From IMG/VR virus record IMGVR_UViG_3300025849_003344: a stretch of DNA of 64,000 nucleotides; one strand, written 5' to 3'. This document shows, piece after piece, positions 16,923 to 25,524 of the stretch. Position 1 is the stretch's first letter, and each line of letters begins with the position of its first letter. The stretch is from a virus (Duplodnaviria > Caudoviricetes). A program made the translations under genes and the position numbers. The notes below the pieces were generated by a model, which worked only from the letters and a program-made list of their open reading frames with translations, searched no databases and was not told where the DNA came from.

Positions 16923-17884
16923 TAGTATAGTCCGTTAGGAACTATGGCATAATGGATTGCTAATACAACACCGACTGATGCTGCAAGACCAACCATCATT
17001 TTCAGAAAGTCTTTTCCAATAAGTGGGAATACCACTTTGAATTTTTCTTTTCCAGTTACAGTAGCCATAGCAAGTTCACGTCCACACAATAAGCCAACAA
17101 ATACCCATGTCGTTGACATTGGAATATCATTCAACTCTTTAAAGAAGAATAAGATAAGCCAATAAACACCATCAATAATTGTAGCAGATCTTACATAACG
17201 AGTATTATGTTTTTCGAGAACGATCTGCTGGATTTTACCACCACCTTCTCTGAACATATACCAAAGACCAAGTACGAAGACTGCACTAACGACAATCATT
17301 AGATCGACCGGTATTTGTCGTGGTAAGAATACTGCGATGTTAGCTACATCATGCGAAAGCCATGTAAACCACAAAAATCCTGTAGTTACCCATTGACCGA
17401 TTCGCCAATATCGTTTATGTTCTTCTTTAACAGGTTTTGCTTCGTCTAATATTTTACTTACTACGATCCATATTGCATATGCCGCTACTGCAGCGACTGC
17501 ATATCCCATCATAGATTTCATAAGCATTTTTTCTAAAATAAATGTAGAAGCAAATGCAGATAAAACTAAAAAAGACGTGCTTACTGGTACGCCTATTCGA
17601 GTCAAGATTAGCAATAAACCTGGTGCCATTGCATGATACCATTGGATTTCTTGAAACGGAATCTTATTCAAACGACCATAACTAATGTCGCCTCCGTTCA
17701 TATACCAACCGTACCATAAGGTGTAAAGCAAGACAGCCGAAGCTGATCCCCACATTACTTTCCAGTTTACTCTCTCATTGTTTGATGCGATCCATGTACC
17801 GAGAGTCTGTACAGAATCATTAGCAATAACTGAATAAGCCGCGAATAAAAATCCGACGGCCATCCAGAGAGTTACAAGTTCCAT
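16922..17884 (-). CDS. PiT/PHO4-related multi-pass membrane transporter (putative phosphate transporter)
   Basis: About 9-10 TM segments; IANDSVQTLGT, PVSTS, HDVANIAVFLP, PMSTTWVFVG resemble PiT signatures. Confidence 0.55.
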   Translation of the reverse strand: MELVTLWMAVGFLFAAYSVIANDSVQTLGTWIASNNERVNWKVMWGSASAVLLYTLWYGWYMNGGDISYGRLNKIPFQEIQWYHAMAPGLLLILTRIGVPVSTSFLVLSAFASTFILEKMLMKSMMGYAVAAVAAYAIWIVVSKILDEAKPVKEEHKRYWRIGQWVTTGFLWFTWLSHDVANIAVFLPRQIPVDLMIVVSAVFVLGLWYMFREGGGKIQQIVLEKHNTRYVRSATIIDGVYWLILFFFKELNDIPMSTTWVFVGLLCGRELAMATVTGKEKFKVVFPLIGKDFLKMMVGLAASVGVVLAIHYAIVPNGLY

Positions 17885-20402: not shown

Positions 20403-20615
20403 TAAAAAAATGCGGTTTTTTAAAAAATAGTTTTGTTTAAAAGCAAAGGTTTATAATTTTATGCGAGAATTTAATTAGTGGTATAGAAAAAGCTCCTAAT
20501 ATGTGTCAAATATTCTGTAAGAAGATACATACTAAAACCATAAATGGCTCTCCTAACTGTGCGATAAATAGAACTAGAGTTAAATTAAAAGATGATAACA
20601 ATTATTTGGTGAAGT

Positions 20616-21272
20616 ATGACAATTAGCGAAGAACGATTAGAAGAAGTAATTTATTGGAACAGACTCCAGAGCATGTCTGACTGGCAGGAGTTTCACGGAT
20701 TTAGCGCAAACAGAATTAAAGAAGAGCTTAAGCCGTTTGAAAATGATTGGGTACGATATAATCCTAAGAAACCAAACAACCGCTGGGGCTTAAGTGTTAC
20801 TAGTTTAGATGGTGGACTTAGTGGCATTCCAGATCTCACAAGTTTAAAAGACTGGGAACTTCAAACAGGTGAAGTATTAGCAAACCACGACATTACAACT
20901 CCCACCCGTGTGTGGACGGAAAGTGAACATCTTTCGCAGATGCTCGAACCATGGAAACAGTGGATAACGCGTTGTCACTTTCTTAGAATGGACCGCGGTA
21001 GCTTTTTTCCAGATCATCACGATATAAACAAATCAGACTTATCATATGATGAAGTAAGACTAACTGCGTTTATCGATTGTGATGAATATAATTTTAAATG
21101 GATTTACGACGATAAAATTGTAAAGTGCAATCCTGGTTCAATGTGGTATTTTAATGCTAACAAGCGCCACAGCGTTCATTCAACACGAGATGGAGTAATC
21201 ATCTTAGTGATTTGTTTAGCGTTTGACAAGGATCTTTTTCTATATATGCAGGACGCTGGACTAGTTAGTTGA
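20616..21272 (+). CDS. 2OG-Fe(II)/cupin oxygenase, Asp/Asn beta-hydroxylase-like
   Basis: HxD (PDHHD) ... YFNANKRHSV distal His. Confidence 0.65.
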   Translation: MTISEERLEEVIYWNRLQSMSDWQEFHGFSANRIKEELKPFENDWVRYNPKKPNNRWGLSVTSLDGGLSGIPDLTSLKDWELQTGEVLANHDITTPTRVWTESEHLSQMLEPWKQWITRCHFLRMDRGSFFPDHHDINKSDLSYDEVRLTAFIDCDEYNFKWIYDDKIVKCNPGSMWYFNANKRHSVHSTRDGVIILVICLAFDKDLFLYMQDAGLVS

Positions 21273-22528
21273 TTTATGCGCTATTCGGCATTCTTGCCGG
21301 AACAGTCTTTGGCATTATTCCAGGCGCTGGTCCTTTCCTAGCAATTGCCACACTTTATCCCATACTTGCCACATTTGATCCAATTGGGATTATGATATTT
21401 TATGTGGCTTTGCTTATTACATCAAACTATACAAACAGCGTAACTGCTATTCTTTATGGAATACCAGGAGATGCAGGAGCTGTAACTACTGCAAGATACG
21501 GCCATAAAATGTTTCTAGAAGGCAAAGGACATTATGCGGTAAGTAGTAACGCAATATCGAGTACGATAGGATCTATTTTTGCAATCGTGGTATTTCTAAT
21601 ATCACTTCCATTTATATTTCAGTTATTTAAATTTTACAATTCTACGATTCAATTAATTGTTATCAGCATTGCTATTATATTCCTAACAATAATGACAAAG
21701 CAGGCTTATTGGAAAACCATAGTTCTTTTTATTCTTGGTGGAATATTAGCCAAGATCGGATATGATAATCTGACAAAAGAAACATGGGGAACATTTGGAT
21801 TTACATATCTAACCCTTGGCATACCTTTTAGCACAATTATGATTGGTCTCTATATTGTCCCTGAGTTACTTAAGTTTGCTGAGAAAGATTTTACTGGTAA
21901 AAATAAAATTACAAAGTTTGCGTATGATCTAAGCACTTGGAAGGCTACGGCCACCGGTAGTTTTGTAGGATTTTGGTGTGGCTTAGTTCCTGGAATTACA
22001 AATGTTTTAGGCAGCTATCTAAGCGCTAATTTTATGAAGAAGGACATAGATAAAATAGCTGCAGCAGAAGCTGCTAATAATAGTGGAGCATTAAGTTCTC
22101 TTCTTCCGCTTATTATTTTAGGAATACCGATTGTTGGAAGTGAAGTACTAATATATTATCTTGTAGTTACTCGTGGATTTACTTTTGATTTAGAAAACAT
22201 TTACATGCTACAAGACGTATTGTATTATATTCCAATCGTATTAGTAGCATGCTTAGTTTTATCATGGTTGTATTTTAATCAACTAGGATATATTGCGGAT
22301 CTATATAAAAGATATAAGCACTATTTTATTATTGGCATTTTTGTATTCATCTCTGTTATGAGCATATACATATACCCAATAAAATTTTGGATAATAACAT
22401 GTCTGATAGTCACAACTGGAATTGGATTTCTTATAAGAAAGTGGGAAACGTTCCCAATTCTGTATGGATTCTTTTTAACTGATTTATTCTATAACAACCT
22501 ATTACGAGTCATAGCGATATACACATGA
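21269..22528 (+). CDS. tctA: Tripartite tricarboxylate transporter large permease, TctA-like
   Basis: GIIPGAG, AILYGIPGD, GLVPG, AAAEAANNSG, LGIP; about 11-12 TMs. Confidence 0.8.
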   Translation: MIYALFGILAGTVFGIIPGAGPFLAIATLYPILATFDPIGIMIFYVALLITSNYTNSVTAILYGIPGDAGAVTTARYGHKMFLEGKGHYAVSSNAISSTIGSIFAIVVFLISLPFIFQLFKFYNSTIQLIVISIAIIFLTIMTKQAYWKTIVLFILGGILAKIGYDNLTKETWGTFGFTYLTLGIPFSTIMIGLYIVPELLKFAEKDFTGKNKITKFAYDLSTWKATATGSFVGFWCGLVPGITNVLGSYLSANFMKKDIDKIAAAEAANNSGALSSLLPLIILGIPIVGSEVLIYYLVVTRGFTFDLENIYMLQDVLYYIPIVLVACLVLSWLYFNQLGYIADLYKRYKHYFIIGIFVFISVMSIYIYPIKFWIITCLIVTTGIGFLIRKWETFPILYGFFLTDLFYNNLLRVIAIYT

Positions 22529-23679
22529 ATAATTTAATATTAGGATACAAACGAGGGTATTATCGGTGCCAGGCTATTCAAACAGCGTTAGCTAAATTTC
22601 AGCAGAAGTCAACTATTATAACTGATGAAGATGATTTTGAAAAGATCGAAGGCAACTATGATCGAATATTTACAATGTCAGAAAGCTTACTGCCATTACA
22701 ATACAAATTAGAACAGCAATTAGGAATTAATAACCTAACAAAAGAGTCAGTTGAAATACTTACTAATAAATTTAAAATGGATGAATACGCCAGATCTTTA
22801 GGGTTTACTATTACACCTAAAAGTGTATTGCCTGAAAATGCTGAAGATCTAAACGCATTTGGAGATAAACCTGTTTTTGTAAAACCTGTTGTTGGATCTG
22901 GCACAAAAGATCAGCATCATAACTTTCCATACACTGCATTTAAAAATAAAGATGAATTGTTAAAGCATGTAAGTTTTAATACATGGATTGATAAAGACTT
23001 TAACAACACGCAAAATCAATTGATGGTTCAAGAACATTTACCAGACAACTCAGAGATATACGCGCTTTATGCTTATGTCAATTCTTCTGGAAGAGTCACA
23101 CCTCTCTATTGGTGTAAAGGCATCATAATGGTGAATAATAGGACTGAGACACATTGGCAACCAAGAAATTACTCATTTGAAGGAATACCCACAAATGAAG
23201 TTCCAGGAAAAATAAAACATACCGTGACTTATTTCTATCAAAAATTAGTAGACGGACTTAAAATAAAAAATCTATCAATGGTTGCTGACTTTTATTATTT
23301 TGATGACACGATTAAATTCATTGATTTAAATCCACGTATCGGCCAAGGAATGGTTATGTACGACGATTTATGTGACAATGAATTTTTACCTAATGTCTTT
23401 GCAGAAATGCCTTTACCAGAATTTAAAAGACATTTGTGGAAAGAAACTAAGTTAAAGGCCGGAACCATAAAAAGTGTTGGCGATTATAAATCTGTAGAAG
23501 GAGCGGGCGTTGCTTCAAATTTTCATTTGCATGATGGTGTTGTAATACCGGAAGAATACTGTTTATCAAGTCAGGATTTTCATTTTTCATTATTCGTATC
23601 TGGAAAAGAAAAAACCGATATGTACGAAACATATCGGTCTTCCCATAATCAATTACAAGCTTGTATAGAATATTATTGA
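22525..23679 (+). CDS. ATP-grasp fold protein
   Basis: NKFKM, FVKPVVGSG, VQEHL, FIDLNPRIG. Confidence 0.75.
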   Translation: MNNLILGYKRGYYRCQAIQTALAKFQQKSTIITDEDDFEKIEGNYDRIFTMSESLLPLQYKLEQQLGINNLTKESVEILTNKFKMDEYARSLGFTITPKSVLPENAEDLNAFGDKPVFVKPVVGSGTKDQHHNFPYTAFKNKDELLKHVSFNTWIDKDFNNTQNQLMVQEHLPDNSEIYALYAYVNSSGRVTPLYWCKGIIMVNNRTETHWQPRNYSFEGIPTNEVPGKIKHTVTYFYQKLVDGLKIKNLSMVADFYYFDDTIKFIDLNPRIGQGMVMYDDLCDNEFLPNVFAEMPLPEFKRHLWKETKLKAGTIKSVGDYKSVEGAGVASNFHLHDGVVIPEEYCLSSQDFHFSLFVSGKEKTDMYETYRSSHNQLQACIEYY

Positions 23680-24443
23680 GTATTGAGAGCTACAGCAGCT
23701 TTAACTTTATCAACAATCATATTTGCATTTGCATCATTTACGACATAAGTCTCAGTTCCTTCAAATGCTGCCAACCATTCATCAGTTGACATTAGTTCGG
23801 CTACGGCTGCGCGCGCTTGCCATACAACGGCCTCTGATGCATTAACGGCAAGAATAATATCAACAAATGCAAAGTCTAGATCACCATTTGCGCTAAAGGC
23901 AAAACAATTTCCGTCTGCTTCAATTTTTTCTTGTCGTGTTTGAATAGTAAAAATAGTATCTGCATCATTAGCAAGATAACCACGAGTTGTTCCGCCTGAA
24001 CCTTCATATGGAACAATCTCAAAATTTACATTATTTGCTTCACCTAACTCATTAATAAATTTAGTTACAGCATCAACGCCACCCCAAGTTGCGACCTTTA
24101 CGGTCTGACCTGCCATATCATCAACCGAGTTGAATGTACGACTGCACATTACTGTTTCATATGTTTGAAGAGCTACGATGGTTGAATCATCAATTGCCAC
24201 TGTTGGCATTTCTGAATCACCTGGCCATTCTGTACTCCACATTGTGAGCACATCGCCACCATCAAAGTAGGTAGACGCTACCACTGGATTTCCAGCTTGT
24301 ACAAAATTATGATCGATTTTAGTACCAACCATATCTAGTACTGCTTTAAACCCGCCCGAATCAGATCCGGTATTAACAATTGTAGTAGCATTTGCGAGAG
24401 GAGCAGCCAAGGAAAAGGCTGCGGCTAGAATAACATTTTTCAT
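23673..24443 (-). CDS. Periplasmic substrate-binding protein, TctC/Bug-like
   Basis: Signal peptide; IVPYEGSGGTTRGYLANDAD resembles the Bug/TctC hVPykGgg.a...llgg motif; adjacent to tctA. Confidence 0.6.
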   Translation of the reverse strand: MKNVILAAAFSLAAPLANATTIVNTGSDSGGFKAVLDMVGTKIDHNFVQAGNPVVASTYFDGGDVLTMWSTEWPGDSEMPTVAIDDSTIVALQTYETVMCSRTFNSVDDMAGQTVKVATWGGVDAVTKFINELGEANNVNFEIVPYEGSGGTTRGYLANDADTIFTIQTRQEKIEADGNCFAFSANGDLDFAFVDIILAVNASEAVVWQARAAVAELMSTDEWLAAFEGTETYVVNDANANMIVDKVKAAVALNTQ

Positions 24444-24476
24444 TATCAGTCCTTATTTACAAAAAATTATAAAGTG

Positions 24477-24497
24477 TGGGGCTAACCTCGGCCCCAC
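24477..24497 (-). terminator. Putative terminator hairpin
   Basis: GTGGGG...CCCCAC followed by TTT. Confidence 0.5.
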
Positions 24498-24532: not shown

Positions 24533-24901
24533 TTAGAAAGAAAAGCTAGCGCCAATTACGACATCGCCGCGAGTTTCGTTTTCTAAATCATAATCAGTTT
24601 CAACATATACTTCTGCGTTGTCGAAGATACCATAACCGACTTTAAAGTCAAGTGTTGGATTTGTATCCATGAATACAAACTCGTCGTTGTAAATCATGAG
24701 ATCAGTTGAAAGTGTAAAGTCCATGCCGTAAAGACCATAACCCATTTCTGGAGTAAGTTCAACGGTCATGTTTTCAACATCGACATTATATTCAGCAGTT
24801 GTTGTAGCACCAAGTGAGATACCAGTGGCTCCAAGCTCAGCGGCTTGAATAGTTGTTGCTGAGGCCAGCAACACAGCAGCAGTAATAGCAGCAAATTTCA
24901 T
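24533..24901 (-). CDS. Small outer-membrane beta-barrel protein
   Basis: Signal peptide, alternating beta strands, terminal ASFSF. Confidence 0.65.
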   Translation of the reverse strand: MKFAAITAAVLLASATTIQAAELGATGISLGATTTAEYNVDVENMTVELTPEMGYGLYGMDFTLSTDLMIYNDEFVFMDTNPTLDFKVGYGIFDNAEVYVETDYDLENETRGDVVIGASFSF

Positions 24902-24925: not shown

Positions 24926-25156
24926 TTATTTTCGATTCCAGATTTCGTATAGAACCCAAACAGCAAGTAAACCTACAAGGCCTTGTGATCCCAATGCGGC
25001 TATCATAGCACTTACATTAGCCACAACGCTTACAGCAGGAATGAATGGAAGTGTTCCCACGCCCAATACTTCAAGTACAATCATGAGAGCGGCGATACTA
25101 ATACCGACTTCTGCTAGTCCAGCAGCCCATGTTTTTACTTTGTTTAGAATGTCCAT
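24926..25156 (-). CDS. Small membrane protein (2 TM)
   Basis: 76 aa hydrophobic; GGGG SD. Confidence 0.65.
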   Translation of the reverse strand: MDILNKVKTWAAGLAEVGISIAALMIVLEVLGVGTLPFIPAVSVVANVSAMIAALGSQGLVGLLAVWVLYEIWNRK

Positions 25157-25169
25157 AGTTGTCCCCTTA

Positions 25170-25430
25170 GAAGTTAAAACGCCACACTTCTGTTACTAGG
25201 CAGTGGCCGCCCTCTTAATTATGCAGCTAGTGCGTAATCAGATGGTGCAAAATTATTGTTTGCATTTGTAGTGATTGACCTATTTCGCAGTCAGCCGGTA
25301 AACTCCACGTCACTTTCACACCTGTCGATCCTATTTCAGCCCCATCAAAAATACACATTATGTACTTATGGTGGAGCTGCCGGGTACCGCCCCCGGGTCC
25401 AGTATGTGTCTACGTTGCTTCAACGTTTAC
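25170..25430 (-). ncRNA. ssrA: Two-piece (circularly permuted) tmRNA; outer ends approximate
   Basis: Acceptor piece ending CCCGGCAGCTCCACCA (25369), 25-nt spacer, coding piece starting GGGGCTGAAATAGGATCGAC (25343), tag ANNNFAPSDYALAA* at 25263-25219. Confidence 0.92.
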
Positions 25431-25524
25431 AAGATTATTTATGACGTATTTGGCGTAATCCCTGACTATACGTGGGCTGTGTGATATAATTATCACTCGT
25501 CCGTCTTCGCCATAAGCTGTGTAT

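What the first reader, a model, noticed from the sequence alone, without database searches (positions are those of the whole stretch)
20616..24443. Phage island with TctA and TctC-like transporter parts, a 2OG oxygenase and an ATP-grasp enzyme
Seen: three overlapping plus-strand genes, rare in this minus-strand genome, converge with a 7-nt overlap on a secreted TctC-like binding protein. No tctB is visible. Established: TTT systems normally import carboxylates using TctA, TctB and TctC. Inference: either a two-component phage uptake system or a hydroxylase-ligase-transporter module that makes or takes up a modified small molecule.
Basis: partly seen in the sequence, partly recalled or inferred. 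Interest (0 to 1): 0.68.

Follow-up and report, generated by a model that had tools for sequence, protein, structure and literature searches.

The report
Marine phage solute-import and ligase module
Many uncultured marine phages carry a conserved kit of a small-molecule binding protein, a stripped-down membrane importer, an ATP-using joining enzyme and usually an iron enzyme, which probably pulls one specific compound into the infected cell and chemically modifies it; the compound is unknown.

Summary
A T4-like marine phage (with an alphaproteobacterial-type tmRNA) carries four intact genes under purifying selection: a TctA permease (Pfam 7e-62), a shrunken secreted protein whose predicted fold is closest to Bug/TctC receptors (Z 16.6), an ATP-grasp enzyme closest to L-amino acid ligases (Z 25.8), and an AspH-like iron enzyme. 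They are co-conserved down to 25-35% ligase identity: ligase 66/66, receptor 44/44 and iron enzyme 66/67 of the untruncated metagenome loci; ligase and receptor meet tail to tail in 92/93 pairs. No TctB was found, also in two complete relatives, and phage TctA lacks the last helix of canonical TctA. Corrections: the '2OG oxygenase' keeps its iron triad but lacks the usual 2OG-binding Arg; it is dispensable in one complete genome; the ligand pockets are remodelled, so citrate is unlikely; an upstream radical SAM gene is deleted here. Best reading (about 50%): import one small, possibly zwitterionic acid and ligate it. A rival is make-and-retrieve (signal or metal chelator). The scan found this kind of TctB-less cassette before in other phages; the papers I found report only a tctA domain hit.

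The parts
20616..21272 (+). Gene A: AspH-like (cupin/double-stranded beta-helix) non-heme iron enzyme; H134-x-D136...H185 triad invariant, canonical 2OG-binding Arg (distal His +10) replaced by Ile/Met/Val
   Evidence: next to TctA in 66/67 metagenome loci, absent from one complete genome
21269..22528 (+). Gene B: shortened TctA permease (419 aa against 504 aa in Salmonella); lacks about 20 N-terminal residues, part of the central loop and the last helix; putative pocket remodelled
   Evidence: dN/dS 0.01-0.06
22525..23679 (+). Gene C: three-domain ATP-grasp enzyme of the L-amino acid ligase / PurK / biotin carboxylase fold class; K82, K120, D255, D267, N269, R271 conserved
23673..24443 (-). 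Gene D: secreted, shrunken Bug/TctC-fold solute-binding protein; invariant cleft loops with W69, E72, W73, W120, Y146, D195; converges on gene C with a 7-nt overlap
20461..20619 (+). Remnant of a radical SAM gene that heads the plus-strand operon in close relatives; about 850 nt deleted, frame broken
24476..24497 (-). G+C-rich hairpin (terminator-like) between the outer-membrane-protein gene and gene D
   Evidence: consensus match only
24533..24901 (-). Small phage outer-membrane beta-barrel-like protein; next to D only in the window's close kin, so not a core part

Best explanation
A phage-encoded import-and-ligate module. Step 1 (fold shown, function inferred): D is exported to the periplasm early in infection and captures one specific small acid; its aromatic and acidic cleft suggests an amino-acid-like or betaine-like zwitterion rather than citrate. 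Step 2 (inferred): D hands it to the shortened TctA, which works as an ion-driven elevator without TctB. Step 3 (fold and catalytic residues shown, substrate inferred): C activates a carboxylate with ATP as an acyl phosphate and joins it to an amine, which traps the solute and makes the product the phage needs. Step 4 (weakest): A hydroxylates or otherwise oxidises the solute or product, possibly with a co-substrate other than 2OG, and can be lost or replaced. The product probably feeds the phage's modification enzymes (radical SAM, methyltransferase and oxygenase genes nearby).
For: B, C and D co-occur in all loci with enough flank. C/D are convergent in 92/93 distinct pairs and overlap by 4-20 nt in 90, even when B or A+B move. 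All four genes have dN/dS of 0.2 or less. D's closest folds are TTT receptors (Z 16.6, rmsd 3.8, 238 aligned). C matches B. licheniformis L-amino acid ligase (Z 25.8, rmsd 3.4, 340 aligned); its D255/D267/R271 mirror RhiC E258/E271/R275 (PMC13579937) and are kept in 111/112 homologues. B and D trees are the most congruent (13 of 16 strong splits shared). Complex B+D: weak support, 0.40 against best control 0.00, runs agree in 72% or more of contacts, partner pLDDT 82; the mark was reached by 58/80 solved and 2/110 mismatched pairs, but at 0.60 or under by only 7 solved pairs and both mismatches. Sister phage receptor cassettes (TctA adjacent in L134 and L363) carry an unrelated protein with a PP-loop-like motif in place of the ligase, so the partner is repeatedly an ATP-using enzyme. 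D has a sigma-70-like promoter in 21/35 upstream regions against 0.44 expected. No exporter recurs nearby.
Against: No ligand, substrate or product is identified and nothing is tested biochemically. The direction (import then ligate, or make then retrieve) cannot be read from gene linkage. C evolves about twice as fast as the other genes and its tree conflicts with D's in 7 of 14 strong splits. Both metal ligands of C are Asp where ligases have Glu. The first carboxylate-pincer motif of D is degenerate. The pocket reading rests on alignment and topology; I had no access to model coordinates.
Confidence: 0.5

Rival explanations
1. Make-and-retrieve: C (with A) synthesises a small amide, released on lysis or by a host exporter, and D+B in other infected cells take it up, as a phage-to-phage signal or a metal chelator that supplies the phage's many iron enzymes.
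For: The ligase-receptor junction is the most rigid link in the module, as for a synthase and its receptor. A resembles beta-hydroxylases. A TTT receptor binds metal-citrate (10.64898/2026.07.27.740893). Radical SAM, NifU and rubrerythrin genes lie near several loci.
Against: No conserved exporter, regulator or cytoplasmic receptor. The cleft of D is invariant while C diverges and recombines, unlike diversifying signal-receptor pairs. A is absent from one complete genome.
Confidence: 0.2
2. B+D are a plain auxiliary nutrient importer (for example an organic acid, amino acid or osmolyte for host metabolism); A and C travel with them but act on something else, such as virion proteins or glycans.
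For: Bacterial TTT systems are nutrient importers (PMC5812351). The module often sits among tail-fibre-like and modification genes. A separates by up to about 7 kb or is lost.
Against: C never separates from D in 93 pairs; its family was found only in this setting where context was read; sister cassettes again carry an ATP-using enzyme.
Confidence: 0.2
3. The phage TctA is not self-sufficient: it borrows the host TctB, or B and D act as decoys or blockers of the host TTT system (resource diversion or superinfection exclusion).
For: No TctB is encoded. TctB is thought to extend the scaffold domain in an AlphaFold model. Mutations in a host TTT operon arose in phage-resistant Roseobacter (PMC13392355).
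Against: Both transport motifs and the hairpin Gly-Pro signatures are intact under strong purifying selection. All phage TctAs aligned have lost the same last helix, which fits a stable TctB-free form; archaeal TctA also occurs without TctB.
Confidence: 0.1

Closest known systems
[quoted passage not shown]
   Same: TctA with both signature motifs; secreted type II binding protein whose best structural matches are Bug proteins; domain-2 pincer loop (Val-Pro-Tyr-x-Gly) kept
   Different: No TctB; TctA 85 aa shorter, without the last helix, about 26% identical to Salmonella TctA; receptor about 60 aa shorter, 11-15% identical, domain-1 pincer motif degenerate, below Pfam TctC detection; receptor on the opposite strand; always joined to a ligase; viral
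L-amino acid ligases (B. licheniformis LAL 3VOT, RizA, BacD, RhiC/RhiM) and related three-domain ATP-grasp enzymes (PurK, PurT, GAR synthetase)
   Same: Full three-domain fold; two ATP lysines, Gly loop, two acidic metal ligands and the carboxylate-binding Arg in the same spacing
   Different: 16% identity; Asp for Glu at both metal ligands; no significant Pfam hit; PurK and PurT are within 3 Z units, so the subfamily and the substrates are not fixed
AspH-like Fe(II)/2OG beta-hydroxylases (PF05118; Cpz10 of caprazamycin biosynthesis)
   Same: HxD...H triad; weak profile matches to Cpz10 (E 0.02-0.05) and PF05118
   Different: The Arg that binds 2OG in Cpz10 (R170) is replaced by a hydrophobic residue in every distinct member read, while neighbouring phage AspH-like families keep it
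tctA domain on SUP05 viral contigs (Roux et al. 2014, PMC4164917)
   Same: tctA and 2OG-Fe(II) oxygenase genes noted as auxiliary genes in marine viruses
   Different: Reported as a domain hit only, with role unknown; no binding protein, ligase or conserved module described

Membership tests
TTT transporter (TctABC) | TctA-family permease with the duplicated G-x3-G-x3-G-x2-P-G motif | tested here: met
   PF01970 E 7e-62; motifs at residues 7 and 230
TTT transporter (TctABC) | Bug/TctC-fold periplasmic binding protein | tested here: met
   Top five VIA hits are TTT receptors, Z 16.6-12.5; first non-TTT hit 11.7; Foldseek and Atlas agree
TTT transporter (TctABC) | Domain-1 pincer motif P-F-x-A-G-G-x-x-D in the receptor | tested here: not met
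   Only the second Gly (G30) is kept; distant viral relatives show intermediate forms
TTT transporter (TctABC) | TctB small 4-helix membrane subunit | tested here: not met
   No candidate beside TctA in the window's lineage; PF07331 absent from five relatives, two of them complete. Caveat: TctB is poorly conserved, and one distant lineage has a 3-helix ORF of about 130-170 aa upstream
TTT transporter (TctABC) | Receptor docks on TctA | tested here: inconclusive
   Weak support: 0.40 against control 0.00
TTT transporter (TctABC) | Ion-driven uptake of a carboxylate | not testable with these tools
   Needs binding and transport assays
L-amino acid ligase (ATP-grasp) | Three-domain ATP-grasp fold with C2 domain | tested here: met
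   3VOT Z 25.8 over 340 residues
L-amino acid ligase (ATP-grasp) | ATP lysines, two acidic Mg ligands, carboxylate-binding Arg | tested here: met
   K82, K120, D255, D267, N269, R271 in 111-112 of 112 sequences, with Asp for Glu
L-amino acid ligase (ATP-grasp) | Joins free L-amino acids | not testable with these tools
   PurK/PurT-type folds score nearly as well
Fe(II)/2OG oxygenase (AspH-like) | HxD...H facial triad | tested here: met
   H134, D136, H185 invariant
Fe(II)/2OG oxygenase (AspH-like) | Arg ten residues after the distal His, binding the 2OG C5 carboxylate | tested here: not met
   Ile/Met/Val throughout; Arg present in neighbouring phage families and in Cpz10. Invariant K183, R119 or R148 might substitute; not modelled

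The most novel reading that the evidence does not exclude
Lytic marine T4-like phages make a dedicated small molecule with a virus-only ligase and iron enzyme, and retrieve or sense it with their own two-part TctA/Bug importer: a phage metal chelator or infection signal released at lysis.
Probability: 0.2. Interest if true: 0.88.

Novelty: new variant of a known kind. Interest (0 to 1): 0.62.

Why it matters
It points to a widespread virus-encoded uptake system coupled to enzyme chemistry in phages of abundant marine bacteria. It gives a natural minimal TctA (no TctB, no last helix) with which to test the open question of what TctB does; no TctA structure was found in the PDB. Because the receptor cleft is invariant across more than 100 variants, one ligand screen on a soluble 25-kDa protein would show which dissolved compound these phages scavenge or make.

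Tried and rejected
PHROGs gave nothing for the four genes, Pfam nothing significant for A, C and D, and NCBIfam only sub-threshold ATP-grasp hits for C. PDB sequence searches found nothing for B, C and D. No cultured phage in INPHARED has a close TctA; hits were 24-28% and look like bacterial TctA. GTDB gave only one 27% hit, by a search that finds close relatives only, so a cellular donor was not identified and no tree with cellular TctAs was built. Rejected: 'complete uptake chain with a porin', since the beta-barrel gene and the 76-aa membrane gene sit next to D only in close kin; the 76-aa protein as TctB substitute, for the same reason; a T4 late promoter before A, since the motif lies in the remnant of the radical SAM coding sequence and the promoter scan was at chance level; citrate as ligand, since pocket residues differ from canonical TctA and BctC (alignment-level only). 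The partner genes of the distant cassettes are not ATP-grasp. A was not folded (both jobs used; the Atlas has no model). No whole genome is held for the window.

Full report
Observation. A, B and C are the only plus-strand ORFs over 200 aa in the window. The window is a T4-like phage (polymerase, UvsX, major head protein), closest by helicase to phage C48C1 (71%) and cyanomyoviruses (about 62%). A permuted alphaproteobacterial-type tmRNA lies at 25178-25475, and three of five related genomes also have one, which suggests, but does not prove, alphaproteobacterial hosts. Against close relatives all four genes are under purifying selection (dN/dS 0.01-0.20).

Gene B. TctA family (E 7e-62), with both signature motifs (PMC5812351). 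Aligned to Salmonella TctA (504 aa, 26% identity) it lacks about 20 N-terminal residues, part of the central loop and the last helix; every phage TctA in the alignment ends at the same place. In a recent AlphaFold model of BctCBA, TctB lies against the scaffold domain, which includes the C-terminus; joint loss of TctB and this helix is my inference. In the putative pocket the canonical Glu of helix 4 is Asn or Gln, and a new invariant Glu (E292) appears in the second hairpin, so the substrate is probably not citrate (inference). No PDB sequence matches B.

Gene D. It has no significant Pfam hit; 4 of 103 relatives touch TctC weakly. The model is confident (pLDDT 92) and its five best matches among 48,161 chains are TTT receptors (Z 16.6, rmsd 3.8, 238 aligned for 4X9T); Foldseek and the Atlas agree. 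The domain-2 pincer loop is kept and the domain-1 motif is degenerate. Invariant residues fall on the loops after the strands that point into the cleft of such proteins: G26, S27, G30, W69, S70, E72, W73, T119, W120, Y146, S149, D195. These loops are aromatic and acidic, with only one conserved basic position (170), which suggests a ligand with an amine or onium group as well as a carboxylate. This is inferred from topology, not from coordinates. In 21 of 35 distinct upstream regions D has a sigma-70-like promoter, against 0.44 expected from shuffles (relatedness inflates the count); in the window D instead follows the beta-barrel gene and a hairpin. A B+D complex got weak support: 0.40 against best control 0.00, contact agreement 72% or more, partner pLDDT 82; 58 of 80 solved and 2 of 110 mismatched pairs reach the mark, but at 0.60 or under only 7 solved pairs and both mismatches.

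Gene C. The model (pLDDT 91.5) is a full three-domain ATP-grasp enzyme, best matched by the B. licheniformis L-amino acid ligase (Z 25.8, rmsd 3.4, 340 aligned), followed by PurK, PurT, RizA and BacD. K82, K120, the Gly loop, D255, D267, N269 and R271 are kept in 111-112 of 112 homologues; the spacing mirrors RhiC E258, E271, R275, with Asp for Glu. The family has 114 clusters, none with a Pfam domain or an informative name. It evolves about twice as fast as A, B and D, and its tree conflicts more often.

Gene A. It is AspH-like: Atlas neighbours carry PF05118 in 16-25% of members, and the profile weakly matches Cpz10. The HxD...H triad is invariant, but the Arg ten residues after the distal His, which binds 2OG in Cpz10 (R170, PMC9814697), is Ile, Met or Val in all distinct members, while two neighbouring phage families keep it. 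So the iron site is shown and 2OG use is not.

Co-conservation. Searches anchored on each gene in turn return the same module. Among metagenome loci anchored on TctA with enough flank, A is present in 66/67, C in 66/66 and D in 44/44. Viral loci agree for C and D. Gene order varies (ABC/D, AB-D/C, BD/C, BDA/C, BCD), and FkbM methyltransferase, SET, oxygenase or other genes slip in, yet C and D are convergent in 92 of 93 distinct pairs and overlap by 4-20 nt in 90. These counts are sequences, not independent events. A lies several kb away in one lineage and is missing from a complete 177-kb genome, where an Arg-bearing AspH-like gene stands before tctA. The core is therefore B+C+D. No TctB was found beside TctA in the window's lineage or, by Pfam, in five related records, two of them complete; TctB is poorly conserved, so this is not proof. 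The five genomes checked each hold one such receptor. The module sits in different contexts (beside thyX and the helicase, among tail-fibre-like genes, among enzyme arrays), so it is mobile. In this window the radical SAM gene that heads the operon in close kin has lost about 850 nt; this may be a real deletion or an assembly artefact.

Wider family. A profile search of 1.8 billion proteins links D to longer receptors of 270-300 aa. Of the six contexts read, three show TctA adjacent without TctB, and three have a neighbour with a PP-loop-like motif in place of the ATP-grasp enzyme. Earlier notes of this scan reported such cassettes and gave me that lead. The recurrence of different ATP-using enzymes beside a carboxylate-type receptor is the main reason to think that the enzyme and the transporter share a molecule.

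Mechanism. Most likely (0.5): capture, import without TctB, ATP-dependent ligation, optional oxidation. Rivals: make-and-retrieve signal or chelator (0.2), independent nutrient importer (0.2), dependence on or interference with the host TTT system (0.1). Folds, motifs, linkage and selection are shown; transport, ligand, reaction and direction are inferred.

Novelty. It works like a TTT importer but fails two family features (TctB, first pincer motif), so it is a new variant, not a plain member. My paper searches found only the tctA domain hit on SUP05 viral contigs (PMC4164917, repeated in PMC6359870); the library is incomplete. Within this scan the same kind of cassette was reported on other phage DNA. 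Interest 0.62.

Noticed in passing
window 25178-25475 (-): Circularly permuted, alphaproteobacterial-type tmRNA with tag ANNNFAPSDYALAA; also in three of five related phage genomes.
   Followed up: yes
window 20461-20619 (+): Radical SAM gene reduced to a remnant by a deletion of about 850 nt; two close relatives carry quite different alleles of this gene between near-identical flanks.
   Followed up: partly
window 24533-24901 and 24926-25156 (-): Phage outer-membrane beta-barrel-like protein (PF24653-like) and a 76-aa membrane protein upstream of the receptor, only in close kin.
   Followed up: partly
window 16922-17884 (-): 320-aa membrane protein with a weak phosphate-transporter (PHO4) match (E 0.002); near the module in two other loci (L026, L039).
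   Followed up: no
L134:5592-8881, L135:743-2704, L363:527-3866: Sister phage cassettes: Bug-like receptor with a PP-loop-like protein, TctA adjacent in L134 and L363, no TctB.
   Followed up: partly
L011:11304-12338 and related loci: SbmA/BacA-like peptide transporter gene (PF05992) about 1.3 kb from the ligase in one lineage.
   Followed up: no
L073, L075, L249-L263, upstream of tctA: A 129-172 aa ORF with about three predicted membrane helices lies 0.2-2 kb upstream in one distant lineage; not tested as a TctB relative.
   Followed up: no
window 23673-23679 and 90 related pairs: Ligase and receptor genes overlap at their 3' ends with no room for a terminator, so their transcripts probably overlap in antisense.
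   Followed up: partly
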